Virus record (IMG/VR): IMGVR_UViG_2681813313_000009
Strand: one strand, 5' to 3'
From: a virus
Taxonomy: Duplodnaviria; Heunggongvirae; Uroviricota; Caudoviricetes
Length of the DNA stretch: 5,423 nucleotides
Made by a program: the position numbers and the translations under genes. The notes under the pieces were generated by a model, which saw nothing but the letters and a program-made list of their open reading frames with translations, was not told where the DNA came from and did not search any database. Below, one piece after another: positions 63 to 5,423 of this stretch (the stretch's first letter is position 1; the number at the start of each line of letters is the position of its first letter).

Positions 63-1151
63 TCACAGATAAAACACTCTCCAGGAAACCCGGGGCGGTT
101 CATTCAGAACATCCAGTAGATTTTCCGCAGGTACACGATGGGCGTTATCCAGAACCAGCACCAAGGTGGTACCCTGCTCTTTCAGGTAGGTATCAAAACT
201 CCTAAGAGCCTCAAAACCACTGGCACCGGGGAGCAAAATCCTGCGCAAACCGTCTTGGTCACGGGCTGTAAATCTAGCAGCCATCTCGCGCACCAGCGTA
301 CTGGCCAGAGCTGGACCGGGAAGATCACCGGTGTCGTAATAAGCACAAAGTGCAGTGGAGTGTAATGCGGCCTGTGCGGCCCAAGCTGTCTTGCCTGCAC
401 CTGAGAGTCCACAAAGGATACGGATCCGCTCACCAGATGTGAGAGAAGGTTCTTCGTTCTGTGGGCGGTACAGTGCTGGTGGTGCAGGAAAGTCCTGTAG
501 CTGAACGATCAACTGTTCAAATAGTTCAGTAAGTTCTTCCGTGAAAAACGTATGTTGTCCATTGGTATCGCCTCCGGTGGCGGCAAGCTGAACCAATCCT
601 GCTAACTTCCAAATCAAGGATTCTGGGGACAATAGTGAAAATTTCAGCTTTTCTGCTTCTGCGATACACCATGTGGCCGCATCAGCCAGAGTACTCCATG
701 CGGGCGGAAGTGCCGGGTGACGTCCAGCTGTCGACTGGGGCCAGACAATAAGAACATCAGAAGGAAGCTTTTTATCGTCAATCATCTTCTGAAGCAGCGG
801 TCCAGGCGCCTGGTTTACAATAATCACAAAAGAAGCCACCCCTTCGCGGTTTGCCGAAGTATGCTCATTTCTGAGCTTTACAAATCGCTCCAGAGCCCCC
901 GACACATCGTTGGGCATAATAGGTTTTGAACGGGTTTTAACCTGAATGTAGAGACGTTCCTGTTTGGATTTCAGCTCAATATCCTCATCAAGCTCGACAG
1001 TTACTGAGTCCATAGCTGCCCTCTGCGCCAAAAGTAAGCAGCCTACAGCGTAAAGATGCTGGTAAAGGAACCCCCGGTGTACCGCTTCGATACGCACCAA
1101 CTGCACAGGATCCAGTACGTCCAGATTTTGTTTGTTTTCACTTCCCCACAT
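63..1151 (-). CDS. Putative defence-type protein: N-terminal PD-(D/E)xK-like nuclease region fused to a P-loop NTPase with STAND/AAA_16-like Walker A and Walker B (possibly truncated)
   Basis: 362-codon ORF with ATG at 1151-1149, an AAGGAA Shine-Dalgarno-like sequence about 6 nt upstream, and TGA at 63-65. Walker A GLSGAGKT lies at residues 248-255 (nt 387-410). A hydrophobic strand ending in Asp, LVLVLDNAH, lies at residues 330-338 (nt 138-164), 82 aa later. The N-terminal part contains ELDEDIELK...ERLYIQVK (about nt 936-989), compatible with a (D/E)xK nuclease core, and a GFLYQHLYAV segment. The ORF ends about 27 aa after the Walker B-like motif, which is short for a complete NTPase domain. 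Confidence 0.6.
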   Translation of the reverse strand: MWGSENKQNLDVLDPVQLVRIEAVHRGFLYQHLYAVGCLLLAQRAAMDSVTVELDEDIELKSKQERLYIQVKTRSKPIMPNDVSGALERFVKLRNEHTSANREGVASFVIIVNQAPGPLLQKMIDDKKLPSDVLIVWPQSTAGRHPALPPAWSTLADAATWCIAEAEKLKFSLLSPESLIWKLAGLVQLAATGGDTNGQHTFFTEELTELFEQLIVQLQDFPAPPALYRPQNEEPSLTSGERIRILCGLSGAGKTAWAAQAALHSTALCAYYDTGDLPGPALASTLVREMAARFTARDQDGLRRILLPGASGFEALRSFDTYLKEQGTTLVLVLDNAHRVPAENLLDVLNEPPRVSWRVFYL

Positions 1152-1394: not shown

Positions 1395-1565
1395 TTAATA
1401 CCGAACATTTCCCTGATAAAATTCCAGTATGCGCTGCATAACTTCGCTCTGACGACACTCGCGACAAATTATATTCTGTCGTCTGTTGTAACGGCGTATT
1501 TCGCCATCTAGCAATGAATAAATCAGGTCAGGGTCGCTCTTCTTTTTCACTGCCGCTCTCGACAT
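1395..1565 (-). CDS. Possible C-terminal continuation of the 1528..1803 gene in the +1 frame (frameshift-split gene), or an independent small ORF
   Basis: The ORF-track frame 1395..1646 overlaps 1528..1803 on the same strand. The two frames cross at an A8 run (T8 on the plus strand, 1565-1572). Removing one A would fuse the N-terminal 79 codons of the upstream ORF to 57 codons of this frame (...KARKKMSRAAVKKKSDPDLIYSLLDGEIRRYNRRQNIICRECRQSEVMQRILEFYQGNVRY). No independent RBS is evident for a start at 1646 or 1565. Confidence 0.3.
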   Translation of the reverse strand: MSRAAVKKKSDPDLIYSLLDGEIRRYNRRQNIICRECRQSEVMQRILEFYQGNVRY

Positions 1566-1803
1566 TTTTTTTGCGGGCTTTTCCCCAGTCCTTACGAGCC
1601 TGCTCCGAAGGAAATATTCCATGTCCTGAACCATATACTGCGCCACTAACTACCAGCTCTTTCACCAGAACTTCTATCAGGTGTCTCGTCGCCCCGGTTT
1701 CATTTTCCAGTTGTTTACGCGTTTTTCGCCCATCTCTGCGTACCAGTTCCACAATGCGCGCCTTCACTTCTTCCCGCAGTTCGGGAGTAAAAACTTTTGC
1801 CAC
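1528..1803 (-). CDS. Small basic HTH-like protein (91 aa), function unknown
   Basis: GTG start at 1803-1801 preceded by a strong AGGAGG Shine-Dalgarno about 5 nt upstream on the minus strand (plus-strand CCTCCT at 1808-1813). The product has a helix-turn-helix-like segment (RKTRKQLENETGATRHLIEVLVKEL) and a Lys/Arg-rich tail. It lies 37 bp downstream of the rep-like gene on the same strand. Confidence 0.55.
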   Translation of the reverse strand: MAKVFTPELREEVKARIVELVRRDGRKTRKQLENETGATRHLIEVLVKELVVSGAVYGSGHGIFPSEQARKDWGKARKKNVESGSEKEERP

Positions 1804-1840: not shown

Positions 1841-2911
1841 TTACCCTCTGAATCCCGGCGGAATTTCGGTGTCCGGTTCAGAAATATGATTAACACAACG
1901 CTGGTTGTTCGTGCCGCTTACCGGGAGCAACCAGGGGTTTTCAAAATTCCGGTCCGGTCCAAAAAACGTCGTCGCTCGCTGAACAAATTCCGTTCCCGTT
2001 TTCCCGGTAGCAGCCAGGTATCTTGTGTAACGCCTTACACCATCCAGCATGGCCTCTGGTGGCACCCCCTCGCGTAATCTGGCCTTCCAGGCACTGAAAG
2101 CGGATTTCTTCGGGTTTGCCCCGGCTCGTAACGGGTATTCCCGCCAGACCTGTTCGAACACATCCGGATAATCCACTCGTCCCACAGGCTGCCCGGTGTT
2201 TTCCGGGACTACCCGATCGGCTTCCCGCTGAATGGCGGAATCGGCTTCAGGCTGCTGCAGTTGGTGTGATTGCTCCGGCCCAGCGGTCATCGCCTGCTGC
2301 ACAGCGCCCGAATCGGCTTTCAGCGCATACGCTGAATCGGCTTCCGGTGTCGTGCCTGCGGGCTGGCCAGGAGTGACGGTCTGAACATCCCCTACATGGT
2401 TCGTGGCGTTTTTTACGCCATGGACCATAGTGTTTTGATCTTCTTTATCTGTATCTCTATCTGTATCTTTATCTGTCGTGACTCGTCGTGACATGTGCGT
2501 GACATTTCGTGACGCGCCGTGACAATCGCCATTTTGTTCCCGCTTTCTTTCCCTCTCACGCTGCGCCCTCTTGCGCTCTGCCGGAGATTTTGCGGTTTGC
2601 GAAATATTGCCGTTGTCCTCTTTAAGCACCTGGCGTTTTTCCCATCCAGTGATTAAATCACCATCAAGTACCCGCCCCTGCATCGTCTGCAAAATTGAAT
2701 CAATTACCTCTTCTGTCACGTCGAGCGCACTTGCCAAATCTTCTGTCGTGACATCAATGTGACCTCGCGTGACATTTCGTGACGCGCTCACCAGGAGGTG
2801 GATATACACTGCCATCACTGTTGCAATTGGCTGCCCTGACACCCTGGCAATTGTTCGCCACTTAGGGTCATTTGGCATGTCATGCCATAATCTGAGCCAG
2901 GCGTTAGCCAT
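1841..2911 (-). CDS. Phage replication initiator / replisome-organizer-like protein (N-terminal winged-helix DNA-binding domain, acidic low-complexity linker, conserved C-terminal domain)
   Basis: ATG at 2911-2909 with GAGGTG 3-4 nt upstream; the ORF track starts two codons earlier at GTG 2917. TAA stop at 1841-1843. The N-terminus MANAWLRLWHDMPNDPKWRTIARVSG... follows the W-x-hydrophobic...DPK pattern I associate with phage replisome-organizer N-domains. The C-terminal segment FEQVWREYPLRAGANPKKSAFSAWKARL... resembles a motif common in phage replication proteins. Iteron arrays lie inside the gene, as in lambda O. It sits where a replication gene is expected, downstream of the cro/cII-like genes. 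Confidence 0.6.
   Translation of the reverse strand: MANAWLRLWHDMPNDPKWRTIARVSGQPIATVMAVYIHLLVSASRNVTRGHIDVTTEDLASALDVTEEVIDSILQTMQGRVLDGDLITGWEKRQVLKEDNGNISQTAKSPAERKRAQRERERKREQNGDCHGASRNVTHMSRRVTTDKDTDRDTDKEDQNTMVHGVKNATNHVGDVQTVTPGQPAGTTPEADSAYALKADSGAVQQAMTAGPEQSHQLQQPEADSAIQREADRVVPENTGQPVGRVDYPDVFEQVWREYPLRAGANPKKSAFSAWKARLREGVPPEAMLDGVRRYTRYLAATGKTGTEFVQRATTFFGPDRNFENPWLLPVSGTNNQRCVNHISEPDTEIPPGFRG
2447..2523. repeat. Candidate origin: three 12-bp T-rich tandem units followed by five CGTGAC iterons at 10-11 bp spacing
   Basis: ATCTGTATCT recurs at 2447 and 2459, with a partial copy at 2471 (12-bp period). CGTGAC occurs at 2477, 2487, 2498, 2508 and 2518, about one helical turn apart. 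The array is inside the rep-like coding sequence. Confidence 0.6.
2747..2787. repeat. Second iteron cluster (four CGTGAC-type repeats) including the second copy of an exact 21-bp direct repeat
   Basis: CGTGAC at 2747, 2768 and 2778, plus an imperfect TGTGAC at 2758 (10-11 bp spacing). The 21-mer GCGTGACATTTCGTGACGCGC is identical at 2497-2517 and 2767-2787. An inverted GTCACG lies at 2715-2720. Confidence 0.55.
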
Positions 2912-2982
2912 ACTCACCTCTTCTGATACCGAATCTTTTTACTCACGAATTGCCGGAAGCGATTCGATATGGCTATTGTCAG

Positions 2983-3682: not shown

Positions 3683-3770
3683 TTAGTAAACACAGCAAAG
3701 AATACCCACAGGTAAACAAAAGTCAATACCCTTGGGTTGTTTACCTTGCGGTAATCGCATCTATTATTTA
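3683..3770. promoter_or_regulatory. Divergent promoter/operator region between the Cro-like and CI-like genes
   Basis: Repeated half-site (A/G)GTAA(A/T)C: AGTAAACA at 3685-3692, GGTAAACA at 3711-3718, inverted copy TGTTTACC at 3738-3745, and GGTAATC at 3750-3756. CAGGTAAACAA (3709-3719) and TTGTTTACCTTG (3737-3748) form an 11-12 bp inverted repeat with a 17-bp spacer. Candidate leftward promoter on the minus strand: -35 TTGACT (plus 3721-3726) and -10 TATTCT (plus 3699-3704). Candidate rightward promoter: -35 TTTACC (3740-3745), -10 TATTAT (3762-3767), placing the start at or near the ATG at 3774 (leaderless). Confidence 0.5.
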
Positions 3771-3773
3771 CCT

Positions 3774-4193
3774 ATGGACAAATATGAATTTAGACGACAA
3801 CAACTCATCAAAATTCGTGATGAGAAATGCGATGGTAAAGCGGTTAACGTGGCCAGAAAGATCGGTCGCGAGCCTTCTTATGTATCAAGAATGTTGTACC
3901 CAGAGGGGAAAAAAGGAAAAAAACGGATCGCTGATGATATGGTGGAGATTATAGAAGAGTCCTTTGGGTTACCCCGGGGATGGATGGATGGTATCGTTTC
4001 ATCATCAACGAACACAGCCTCCAATTATGAAACAAGGGTTCTAACGCCACGACAACGTATTTTTTTAGATCTCTTAGACGAACTGCCAGAAAGTGAAGCG
4101 GATAACTTATTAAAAACTCTTGAAGAGAAAAAACAGTATTACAATATGATCTACGAAGAAATCCGTAAAAAGAAAGCACAAAACGCATCATAA
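3774..4193 (+). CDS. CI-like prophage repressor (N-terminal HTH, no obvious peptidase S24 domain; RacR-like position)
   Basis: The ORF track starts at 3732 (MGCLPCGNRIYYLP...), but that extension has no RBS and is compositionally odd. The ATG at 3774 gives MDKYEFRRQQLIKIRDEKCDGKAVNVARKIGREPSYVSRM... with an HTH (AVNVARKIGREPSYVSRM) near the N-terminus. No Shine-Dalgarno, consistent with a leaderless mRNA from the adjacent TATTAT. TAA stop at 4191-4193. Divergent from the cro-like gene. Confidence 0.6.
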   Translation: MDKYEFRRQQLIKIRDEKCDGKAVNVARKIGREPSYVSRMLYPEGKKGKKRIADDMVEIIEESFGLPRGWMDGIVSSSTNTASNYETRVLTPRQRIFLDLLDELPESEADNLLKTLEEKKQYYNMIYEEIRKKKAQNAS

Positions 4194-4992: not shown

Positions 4993-5423
4993 TAGCTAAT
5001 CAACAAAGCTAAGGTTAGTAATTAAGGAGTTCTCCACGGGTGAGGTGGAGTGCGTGCGCCGGACACGGGTGAGCATCCGGCATTGACAGTTTACTGAAAG
5101 GATATTTCCCTGAAAAGTCAGACCATAACGCGAAAGCGCACGGCGAGGTAGCTGGTTCATAGATAGCCTGTCGTTAAATTTTCGTCGACCGTGCGCTTCC
5201 GGTTGTGGCAATCCGCGAAATGGCGCGGCGGTAAGTATGGCGGGGTTATTCCTTCCCCCGTTGAGGACACCGGGTTGTCAGGTTGACCATACGCTTAAGT
5301 GACAACCCCGCTGCAACGCCCTCTGTTATCAATTTTCTGGTGACGTTTGGCGGTATCAGTTTTACTCCGTGACTGCTCTGCCGCCCTTTTTAAAGTGAAT
5401 TTTGTGATGCGGTGAATGCGGCT
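4993..5423. other. Apparently non-coding, GC-rich region with long inverted repeats (possible regulatory site or structured RNA)
   Basis: No convincing ORF; the only track ORF here (4996..5211, minus) has Arg-rich, non-protein-like composition and no RBS. AGCGCACGG (5135-5143) pairs with CCGTGCGCT (5189-5197), a 9-bp perfect inverted repeat with a 45-bp spacer. GGGTTGTCA (5272-5280) pairs with TGACAACCC (5300-5308), 9 bp with a 19-bp spacer. A TTGACA hexamer sits at 5083-5088. Confidence 0.3.

What the first reader, a model, noticed from the sequence alone, without database searches (positions are those of the whole stretch)
2440..2790. Iteron-type origin embedded in the rep-like gene (two CGTGAC arrays at helical-turn spacing next to a T-rich 12-bp tandem repeat)
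Seen in sequence: five CGTGAC copies at 2477-2523 and four at 2747-2783 (one imperfect), all spaced 10-11 bp, with three 12-bp T-rich tandem units (2447-2481) just upstream of the first array. By analogy with lambda, where ori lies inside gene O as iterons plus an AT-rich unwinding element, this is a strong candidate for the replication origin and for the binding sites of the N-terminal domain of the encoded initiator. Two separate arrays about 270 bp apart is unusual and could indicate DNA looping or handcuffing.
Basis: partly seen in the sequence, partly recalled or inferred. Interest (0 to 1): 0.6.

Follow-up and report, generated by a model that had tools for sequence, protein, structure and literature searches.

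The report
Prophage replication origin inside initiator gene
The repeats are real and are very probably the replication origin of a common but unstudied E. coli prophage: two rows of short initiator-binding sites plus an easily melted A+T-rich tract, all written inside the initiator's own gene. This is a familiar design (as in phage lambda) in a new layout.

Summary
CGTGAC (GTCACG on the coding strand) occurs five times at 2477-2523 and three times exactly plus once imperfectly at 2747-2783, always 10-11 bp apart. A 12-bp T-rich tandem repeat lies at 2442-2476. All of this sits inside a 356-aa prophage replication initiator gene (1841-2911, minus strand).

Comparison with about 60 homologous genes shows selection on the DNA itself:
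- The hexamers fall in all three codon phases.
- Synonymous sites inside them are nearly frozen (0.24 vs 1.28 bits, p=2e-6).
- 45 of 58 relatives carry the same two-array layout.
- The core differs between clades (GTCACG, GTAACG, CGAACGC), and both arrays of a gene carry that gene's core.
- A gene with the same C-terminal domain but an unrelated N-terminal domain has different repeats.

The A+T-rich, purine-rich tract follows the linker array family-wide, even when read in another frame. It is the least stable stretch of the gene.

Best reading: a lambda/SPP1-style origin embedded in its initiator gene, in a two-array variant. Origin firing, initiator binding and looping are untested. The module occurs in 1821 of 5426 complete E. 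coli genomes. I found no paper describing it.

The parts
1841..2911 (-). Replication initiator gene (356 aa from ATG 2911; the ORF lister starts at GTG 2917). It has an N-terminal winged-helix domain (about residues 1-95), a basic helix (about 107-127), a disordered linker (about 128-160) and a C-terminal domain that ends in a DnaT-like tail.
2477..2523 (-). Array 1 (linker array): five GTCACG units (coding strand) at 10, 11, 10, 10 bp. It encodes part of the disordered linker (CHGASRNVTHMSRRVTT). Proposed core initiator-binding iterons.
   Evidence: Relatives carry 3-7 copies at the equivalent place. In an otherwise variable linker, SR..VT is invariant. The model has pLDDT below 50 here.
2442..2476 (-). 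A+T-rich, strand-asymmetric tract: (TACAGATAAAGA)x3 on the coding strand, T-rich on the + strand. It abuts array 1 on its downstream side in the direction of transcription. Proposed DNA unwinding element.
   Evidence: tandem repeat; 2433-2473 is the least stable 40-bp window of the gene (-44.1 kcal/mol; next in the gene -51.9; window mean -56.0, sd 4.4); in 46 relatives the 42 nt after array 1 are 68% A+T against 44% for the genes (Wilcoxon p=1e-14) and 76% purine, and AGATAA-type DNA persists when read in another frame. GAT and AAA are fixed at synonymous sites.
2747..2783 (-). Array 2 (N-domain array): four units (2747, 2757 imperfect, 2768, 2778) at 10, 11, 10 bp. It encodes the loop SRNVTRGHIDVT between helix 29-45 and helix 56-63 of the winged-helix domain. 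Proposed auxiliary initiator-binding array.
   Evidence: codon third positions of GTC, ACG, GGT and CAC are identical in 22-23 of 23 genes from different genera; it maps to a loop. E. coli variants carry a 21-bp insertion here (two units, 7 codons); most relatives have it; L043 and L044 lack it.
2715..2720 (+). Single inverted copy of the hexamer, 27 bp downstream of array 2 in coding direction.
   Evidence: It is present at the same place in most GTCACG-class relatives, but its synonymous sites are only moderately conserved (GAC 16, GAT 7). Its significance is uncertain.
2396..2428 (.). Inverted repeat (14-nt arms, 12 of 14 paired, 5-nt loop) on the far side of the A+T-rich tract from array 1.
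   Evidence: It is the best hairpin in this gene but is not consistently present in relatives (median rank 0.37 across 46 genes). Whether it belongs to the origin is uncertain.
3699..3726 (-). Candidate rightward early promoter (TTGACT-16-TATTCT) upstream of the cro-like, cII-like and rep genes. Transcription from it would run through the proposed origin.
   Evidence: a consensus match only: 3 sites found against 2.4 expected. Gene order.

Best explanation
This is the replication origin of a Qin/DicA-type lambdoid prophage, embedded in the gene of its own initiator.

Proposed mechanism:
1. Early rightward transcription makes the initiator.
2. Its N-terminal winged-helix domain plus the adjacent basic helix binds the short direct repeats (consensus (T)GTCACG(C/A)). 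There is one repeat per helical turn, so the proteins line up on one face of the DNA.
3. The five-unit linker array (2477-2523) abuts the A+T-rich, purine/pyrimidine-asymmetric tract (2442-2476), which melts first.
4. The C-terminal domain, which ends in a DnaT-like tail, then brings in the host DnaB helicase machinery. No phage-encoded loader gene lies next to rep here.
5. The second array (2747-2783), about 225 bp away inside the coding sequence of the DNA-binding domain, is an auxiliary set of the same sites. It either enlarges the initiator-DNA complex or restrains it by looping or pairing.

Shown by sequence comparison: the repeats and the tract are real, selected at the DNA level, confined to the gene, and co-inherited and co-varying with the N-domain.

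Inferred: binding by the initiator, melting at the tract, helicase recruitment, and the role of array 2.
For: 1. The gene is a replication initiator.
2. The repeats exceed chance: 11 copies against 2.1 expected, 0 of 200 shuffles. Spacing across 23 genes is 10 bp (99 times) or 11 bp (30 times).
3. They are a DNA-level feature, not a protein repeat. Units occupy codon phases 2, 0, 1, 0 and 1, 2, 0, 2, 0. Synonymous third positions inside hexamers have 0.24 bit of entropy (n=12) against 1.28 bit outside (n=57), Mann-Whitney p=2.3e-6.
4. The architecture is shared. 45 of 58 homologous genes have one 5-mer at least three times in both array regions, against 0.4% of codon-shuffled genes. Within the 3-kb flanks and the 25-kb L001, the only other run of three or more was one loosely spaced trio in L012.
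5. The core co-varies with the N-domain clade: GTCACG, GTAACG or CGAACGC, with both arrays of a gene carrying that gene's core. Clade-specific residues lie in the basic helix after the wing.
6. The repeats follow the N-domain. Pseudomonas phage Marin has the N-domain as a separate 186-aa protein upstream of a primase/helicase and keeps 4+4 GTCACG. O157 prophage L005 has the same C-domain and an 89%-identical YdaT but an unrelated N-domain; it has AAGGGGCTT repeats instead, again in two arrays followed by a purine-rich tract.
7. The A+T-rich tract is conserved, frame-independent and the least stable part of the gene.
8. The order iterons, then A+T-rich tract, in the direction of transcription and in the linker-coding middle of the initiator gene matches oriLambda (PMC7466680). 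Direct repeats plus an A+T-rich unwinding element inside the initiator gene match SPP1 oriL (PMC6316719).
9. The N-domain model is a winged helix, and both arrays fall in a loop or in disordered linker, where sequence constraints from DNA can be tolerated.
Against: - There is no experimental evidence. Nothing here shows replication initiating at this place, or the initiator touching these repeats.
- The predicted recognition helix of the winged helix (residues 67-77) is acidic and variable. The closest replication-related fold (DnaD N-domain) is, from my own knowledge, an oligomerisation module rather than a DNA reader. Which part reads the hexamer is therefore unclear.
- This particular prophage looks partly decayed: integrase and DUF977 are frameshifted. 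The element may no longer fire here.
- No phage helicase loader is adjacent, so the helicase-recruitment step is speculative.
- About a fifth of the family members (e.g. L033, L035, L051, L054, L056) show no obvious arrays with my simple k-mer scan.
- The literature search covered open-access papers only.
Confidence: 0.8

Rival explanations
1. The arrays are initiator-binding sites whose main role is control rather than origin opening. They could act in autoregulation, as a transcription roadblock inside rep, in initiator titration, or in pairing between arrays or between co-resident prophages. This could hold for array 2 alone, which is compatible with the best explanation, or for both arrays with the true origin elsewhere.
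For: Two arrays of identical sites about 225 bp apart lie in the transcribed gene. Array 2 has no adjacent A+T-rich tract. Some relatives lack array 2 but keep array 1 (L043, L044), so array 2 is dispensable for whatever array 1 does. Up to 4 copies of the module occur per E. coli genome, which gives scope for cross-talk. From my own knowledge, plasmids such as P1 and F use a second iteron array for negative control.
Against: Array 1 is always joined to the conserved, easily melted tract, the classic origin signature. No other cluster of these sites exists within 25 kb. The distance between arrays varies (about 258 to 350 bp first-to-first), so there is no fixed helical phasing.
Confidence: 0.25
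2. The repeats are a by-product of protein coding (a repeated peptide such as ASRNVT, or a low-complexity linker) with no function as DNA.
For: The two arrays are 270 bp (90 codons) apart, and ASRNVT occurs twice in the protein. The loop SRNVTRGH..VT is invariant in GTCACG-class proteins.
Against: Units are 10-11 bp apart and so cycle through all three reading frames. Synonymous positions inside them are frozen across 23 genera of differing G+C content. Array length changes by 21 bp, which is two units. The A+T tract is kept when translated in another frame. The invariant peptide lies in a disordered, otherwise variable linker.
Confidence: 0.03
3. The repeats are bound by another factor (the YdaT/cII-like protein, DUF977, the repressor, or a host protein), not by the initiator.
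For: YdaT-family genes sit upstream of rep in this window, in the E. coli loci examined (L001-L003, L005, L065) and in Pseudomonas phage Marin. No binding data exist.
Against: YdaT is 89% identical between this window and L005, although their repeats are unrelated. DUF977 is absent next to the Marin homologue, which keeps the arrays. The core sequence changes clade by clade with the N-domain in hosts from several bacterial classes, which argues against a host factor. No DnaA boxes are present.
Confidence: 0.05
4. The A+T-rich (GATAAA/GATACA)n tract is conserved mainly as a recombination joint for shuffling N- and C-terminal modules, not as an unwinding element.
For: The break between the N-module and the C-module in E. 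coli genomes falls at 2436-2454, in the tract (hits cover query 3-596 or 614-1077). The same tract occurs in Rac YdaU, which has a different N-domain. N-domains are combined with many different C-domains.
Against: A joint does not need to be A+T-rich in G+C-rich hosts, nor to abut an iteron array in every clade. The two roles are not exclusive.
Confidence: 0.1

Closest known systems
oriLambda inside gene O of phage lambda and Stx phages (O/P replication module)
   Same: The origin lies in the middle of the initiator gene, in the part coding for the inter-domain linker. An array of initiator-binding iterons is followed, in the direction of rightward transcription, by an A+T-rich tract that is unwound (PMC7466680, PMC6022878). 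Iteron number varies between relatives (4 in lambda, 6 in Stx phages; here 3-7 and 3-6).
   Different: - The initiator is not an O homologue: no Pfam match to the lambda O family.
- The sites are 6-7-bp cores repeated head-to-tail every 10-11 bp with no internal dyad. From my own knowledge, lambda's are about 19-bp dyad-symmetric iterons.
- There are two arrays, one inside the coding sequence of the DNA-binding domain.
- No P-type loader gene is adjacent in this prophage.
SPP1 oriL inside gene 38 (replisome organizer gp38/G38P)
   Same: Direct repeats plus an A+T-rich unwinding element lie within the gene of the origin-binding 'replisome organizer' (PMC6316719). PGAP names this protein 'phage replisome organizer'. 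PHROG replisome-organizer families match weakly, and the fold resembles the DnaD N-domain.
   Different: - Sequence membership in Pfam PF09681 is below threshold.
- SPP1 has a second origin about 13 kb away (oriR), not a second array in the same gene.
- SPP1 encodes its own loader and helicase (gp39, gp40). This prophage shows neither next to rep.
Iteron plasmids with two iteron arrays flanking rep (P1 incC/incA, F ori2/incC); from my own knowledge, not tested here
   Same: There are two separated arrays of the same initiator-binding site. In those plasmids one array is at the origin and the other acts as a control locus through initiator-mediated pairing or looping.
   Different: In the plasmids the arrays flank the rep gene, the iterons are about 19-22 bp, and the initiators are Rep_3-type double winged-helix proteins. 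No such Pfam match was found here. No evidence for control or looping exists here.

Membership tests
Lambdoid oriLambda-type origin (O/P module) | The origin (iterons plus adjacent A+T-rich tract) is located inside the initiator gene | tested here: met
   Arrays at 2477-2523 and 2747-2783 and the tract at 2442-2476 all lie inside the ORF 1841-2911. This is met at the level of sequence anatomy only.
Lambdoid oriLambda-type origin (O/P module) | The initiator is homologous to lambda O | tested here: not met
   No Pfam family reached E<=0.01 for the whole protein. At E<=1, the only matches to the N-domain were sub-threshold PF09681 and HTH_Crp_2.
Lambdoid oriLambda-type origin (O/P module) | Long (about 19-bp) iterons with internal dyad symmetry, each bound by an initiator dimer (feature recalled from my own knowledge) | tested here: not met
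   The unit is a conserved (T)GTCACG(C/A) with variable spacer, in direct repeats every 10 or 11 bp, with no dyad.
Lambdoid oriLambda-type origin (O/P module) | A P-type helicase-loader gene lies immediately downstream of the initiator gene | tested here: not met
   Here, and in phage vB_EcoS-640R1, rep is followed by DUF977. A relative with a different C-domain (L002) does have 'replication protein P'.
Phage replisome organizer (SPP1 gp38 type; Pfam PF09681 Phage_rep_org_N) | The N-terminal domain matches PF09681 above its gathering score | tested here: inconclusive
Phage replisome organizer (SPP1 gp38 type; Pfam PF09681 Phage_rep_org_N) | Direct repeats plus an A+T-rich unwinding element inside its own gene, bound by the protein | not testable with these tools
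   The sequence anatomy is present and co-varies with the N-domain. Binding needs EMSA or footprinting.
Iteron-plasmid Rep initiators (Rep_3 / RepA-RepE-pi type) | A double winged-helix Rep_3 initiator with about 19-22-bp iterons | tested here: not met
   No Rep_3 match. There is a single winged helix plus a basic helix, and the cores are 6-7 bp at a 10-11 bp pitch.
DnaT (primosomal protein I) | A full-length match to DnaT or the DnaT DNA-binding domain | tested here: not met
   Only residues 335-358 match the last 24 residues of DnaT: NF002770 gives 18 bits against a cut-off of 201, and PDB 6aep, 2ru8 and 9zbt match at E=0.018-0.065. PF17948 is absent from this protein but present in relatives with another C-domain.

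The most novel reading that the evidence does not exclude
The family uses a bipartite, self-encoded origin. One iteron array is written inside the coding sequence of the initiator's own DNA-binding domain, in a permissive loop that grows in 21-bp steps (two iterons, 7 codons). The other array sits in the linker next to the unwinding tract. A switch of origin specificity (GTCACG to GTAACG to CGAACGC) therefore has to change both arrays and the protein together. Array 2 would serve as a built-in looping or handcuffing control. That control would also couple co-resident prophages carrying the same module (up to four per E. coli genome). In addition, the initiator would recruit host DnaB through a DnaT-mimicking tail, without a phage-encoded loader.
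Probability: 0.25. Interest if true: 0.65.

Novelty: new variant of a known kind. Interest (0 to 1): 0.5.

Why it matters
- This replication module is in about a third of complete E. coli genomes (1821 of 5426) and in phages and prophages of Pseudomonas, Aeromonas, Bordetella and many other proteobacteria. I found no description of its origin or initiator specificity.
- Knowing the origin gives a handle for mini-replicon construction, for predicting which prophages can still replicate after induction, and for studying interference between co-resident prophages that share iterons.
- The family is also a clean natural experiment. It offers three iteron dialects with matched initiators. Its binding sites overlap coding sequence, so they can be partly recoded synonymously. 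Array length changes in steps that satisfy both the reading frame and the DNA helical repeat.
- Conceptually it extends, rather than overturns, the lambda and SPP1 design.

Tried and rejected
- **Protein-repeat artefact.** Rejected by codon phase and synonymous-site conservation.
- **YdaT/cII-like protein as the specificity factor.** Rejected: it is 89% identical in L005, which has different repeats.
- **DnaA boxes.** None beyond chance.
- **A lambda-like palindrome beyond the A+T tract as a family feature.** It is present here (2396-2428) but not consistently in 46 relatives, so I did not count it as a core part.
- **Fixed helical phasing between the two arrays.** Distances vary from about 258 to 350 bp, so there is no evidence for it.
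- **Pfam and NCBIfam assignment of the N-domain.** Nothing reached threshold.
- **Literature.** Searches for iterons with replisome organizer, for GTCACG with iteron, and in the non-lambdoid Stx-phage replication paper found no description of this origin.
- **Rac prophage YdaU as a characterised relative.** It has a different N-domain (DUF1376), so it gives no direct support.
- **Simple k-mer scan.** It found no arrays in about a fifth of the distant family members (L033, L035, L051, L052, L054, L056, L061, L062). I did not resolve whether they lack iterons or have degenerate ones.
Full report

**Checking the observation.**
- CGTGAC occurs on the + strand at 2477, 2487, 2498, 2508 and 2518, and at 2747, 2768 and 2778. 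An imperfect TGTGAC at 2757 fills the gap, and one inverted copy lies at 2715.
- The window has 11 copies against 2.1 expected, and no shuffle reached 11.
- The 12-bp T-rich tandem repeat is at 2442-2476.
- In the 25-kb prophage stretch L001, clusters of three or more copies occur only in these two places.

**Are the repeats a DNA feature or a coding by-product?**
- On the coding strand the unit is GTCACG. Because units are 10 or 11 bp apart, they fall in codon phases 2, 0, 1, 0 (array 2) and 1, 2, 0, 2, 0 (array 1). A repeated peptide cannot explain them.
- I aligned 23 genes of the GTCACG class from different genera (Escherichia, Pseudomonas, Bordetella, Aquitalea, Rahnella, Serratia, Acidovorax, Stenotrophomonas and others). 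I compared synonymous third positions at conserved residues. Entropy was 0.24 bit inside the hexamers (n=12) against 1.28 bit outside (n=57), Mann-Whitney p=2.3e-6. For example, Val is GTC in 23 of 23 genes, and the adjacent Thr is ACG in 23 of 23 (first VT pair) and 22 of 23 (second VT pair).
- In the linker, which is otherwise variable and predicted disordered, the residues forced by two adjacent hexamers (S-R-x-V-T) are invariant.
- Array length varies in whole units. Several E. coli and E. albertii variants have six units in array 2 through a 21-bp insertion. That is two units, 7 codons (TCHGVSL) and about two helical turns. Array 1 has 3-7 units in relatives.

**Comparative anatomy.**
- The N-terminal 158 residues have 749 database relatives at E<=0.001.
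- A scan of one genome per species returned 59 loci. They come from gamma-, beta- and alpha-proteobacteria, plus a few MAGs labelled otherwise.
- A de novo search for the 5-mer with the most 10-11-bp neighbours found two arrays in most of the genes scanned. One lies at coding nt about 129-165 and one at about 350-450.
- 45 of 58 genes have one 5-mer at least three times in both regions, against 0.4% of codon-shuffled controls.
- The core differs by clade: GTCACG in proteins at least about 58% identical to the query, GTAACG(C) in a second group, and CGAACGC in a third. Both arrays of a gene always carry that gene's core. The encoded peptides change accordingly (ASRNVTRGH..VT versus ASNATERGRTQ).
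- Outside the array-encoded segments, the clearest clade-specific residues are in the basic helix after the wing: AERKREQRERE, AERVREYRERKK or SAERAKAWREAQK. The wing itself (AMQGRVLDG..GWEKRQ) is invariant.

**The repeats follow the N-domain, not the rest of the module.**
- Pseudomonas phage Marin encodes the N-domain as a separate 186-aa protein upstream of a primase/helicase. It keeps 4+4 GTCACG units and the A+T tract.
- E. coli relatives with a DnaT-type C-domain and a P-like loader keep the repeats too.
- Conversely, an O157 prophage gene (L005) shares this window's C-domain and an 89%-identical YdaT but has an unrelated N-domain. It has no GTCACG. It has AAGGGGCTT repeats at 11-bp spacing, again in two arrays (nt 172-207 and 441-474), followed by a purine-rich (GAACAG)n tract.
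It also argues against YdaT, DUF977 or a host factor as the reader of the sites.

**The A+T-rich tract.**
- In 46 relatives the 42 nt after the last unit of array 1 average 68% A+T against 44% for the genes (Wilcoxon p=1.4e-14), with 76% purine on the coding strand.
- The DNA motif (C)AGATAAAGATA(A/C)AGATAAAGA is kept in G+C-rich hosts. GAT and AAA are fixed at synonymous sites. The motif persists where it is translated in another frame (LDKIREE, DRLDKRR, PQIRED instead of TDKDKDK).
- In this window, 2433-2473 is the least stable 40-bp stretch of the gene. Its nearest-neighbour energy is -44.1 kcal/mol; the next in the gene is -51.9, and the window mean is -56.0 with sd 4.4. Only two stretches in the window are less stable: one intergenic (1193-1233) and one at the 3' end of the DicA-like repressor gene (4107-4147).
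- No DnaA boxes are present.
- An inverted repeat (2396-2428) lies beyond the tract. It is not a consistent family feature.

**The protein.**
- An AlphaFold2 model of residues 1-158 (mean pLDDT 74; core 86-97) shows three N-terminal helices and then a loop at 46-55. A helix-turn-helix (56-63 and 67-77), a beta-hairpin wing (78-88) and a long basic helix (110-127) follow. Residues 131-158 are disordered.
- Array 2 encodes the 46-55 loop, which is also where the 7-residue insertion sits. Array 1 and the A+T tract encode disordered linker. The DNA elements therefore occupy the parts of the protein most tolerant of imposed sequence.
- Pfam PF09681 (replisome organizer N-domain) matches only below threshold.
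- The last 24 residues resemble the C-terminal end of DnaT, and the motif IPPGFRG recurs in relatives with other C-domains.
- DnaT is thought to recruit DnaB/DnaC during restart, by an unknown mechanism (PMC13377028).
- Neither this prophage nor phage vB_EcoS-640R1 has a loader gene next to rep. Host-helicase recruitment through this domain is therefore a reasonable inference, but it is untested.

**Interpretation.**
- The anatomy is iterons, then an A+T-rich tract in the direction of transcription, in the linker-coding middle of the initiator gene. That is the anatomy of oriLambda (PMC7466680, PMC6022878) and, in general terms, of SPP1 oriL (PMC6316719).
- I therefore read array 1 plus the tract as the core origin and array 2 as an auxiliary array of the same sites. 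L043 and L044 lack array 2 but keep array 1, which fits that ranking.
- Whether array 2 helps build the initiation complex or restrains it by looping or handcuffing cannot be decided from sequence. The inter-array distance is not fixed (about 258-350 bp), so strict helical phasing is not required.

**Differences from known systems.**
- The sites are short cores at one per helical turn, without dyad symmetry.
- There are two arrays within one gene.
- One array lies inside the DNA-binding domain's own coding sequence.
- The initiator family is neither lambda O nor a Rep_3 plasmid initiator.
- In this prophage and in phage vB_EcoS-640R1 no loader gene lies next to rep; relatives with other C-terminal domains do carry one.

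**Novelty and limits.**
- No model phage carries this N-domain. Only recently sequenced phages do: vB_Eco-series phages, Tritos, Evi, Aeromonas pAEv1818, and Pseudomonas phi1 and Marin.
- I found no paper describing its origin. That search covers open-access literature only.
- The N-module with its arrays is present in 1821 of 5426 complete E. coli genomes, with up to four places per genome.
- Everything functional here is inferred from comparison. Binding, melting, firing, helicase loading and any looping need the experiments listed under next steps.
- I rate this a well-supported new variant of a known kind of element, of moderate interest.

Noticed in passing
window 5335-5386 (+): DicF antisense sRNA (Rfam RF00039, 76.7 bits against a gathering score of 48). 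It lies downstream of the ydfA/B/C-like genes, as in the Qin prophage.
   Followed up: partly
window 63-1151 (-); L001 8513-11311: The gene after DUF977 encodes a 933-aa protein with Cap4-type nuclease, AAA and SEC-C features. It has a weak match to a DUF4297 anti-phage-associated family. It looks like a defence gene inserted in the early-right operon of the prophage.
   Followed up: no
window 2436-2454; L005 2999-4090 (-): The boundary between exchangeable N- and C-terminal modules of the initiator falls in the A+T-rich tract. An O157 prophage gene has the same C-domain joined to an unrelated N-domain. That N-domain carries its own AAGGGGCTT repeats in two arrays (gene nt 172-207 and 441-474), followed by a (GAACAG)n tract. 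The two-array layout therefore recurs in a non-homologous N-domain.
   Followed up: partly
L066 2120-2977 (+) (E. coli K-12 Rac prophage ydaU): YdaU has a DUF1376-type N-domain. Its linker carries TGTTCAA repeats followed by the same AAAGATACAGATAAAGAT tract, and it ends in the same IPPGFRG tail. This suggests a shared design among several enterobacterial prophage initiators.
   Followed up: partly
window 1841-1915 (-), residues 333-356: The C-terminal tail resembles the last 24 residues of E. coli DnaT (weak hits to PDB 6aep, 2ru8 and 9zbt). It is conserved (IPPGFRG) in relatives with otherwise different C-domains. It is a possible host-protein docking peptide.
   Followed up: partly
L002 3295-3347, L003 3908-3960, L007 3129-3181: E. 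coli and E. albertii variants carry six units instead of four in array 2. This comes from a 21-bp insertion (7 codons, TCHGVSL), a step that satisfies both the reading frame and two turns of the helix.
   Followed up: yes
window 2396-2428: A 14-nt-arm inverted repeat lies next to the A+T tract and is the best hairpin in the gene. From memory, a palindrome sits in a similar position in oriLambda. It is not conserved across the family.
   Followed up: yes
window 1528-1803 (-); L001 11555-11963 and 18922-19972: The DUF977 gene and the integrase of this prophage are annotated as frameshifted, so the prophage may be defective even though the origin elements are intact.
   Followed up: no
L052 and L061 (Serratia and Pantoea loci): Here the N-domain is fused to a different, longer downstream region (396 and 434 aa). 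The start of that region (YVYYV...GIS.NPWAR) looks like a small nuclease-type motif. These genes have other short repeats (ACTAC/CTACG) only around nt 326-369. I did not analyse them further.
   Followed up: no
E. coli genome search with window 2437-2917: The N-module occurs at up to four places in one E. coli genome, so several co-resident prophages can share identical iterons.
   Followed up: no
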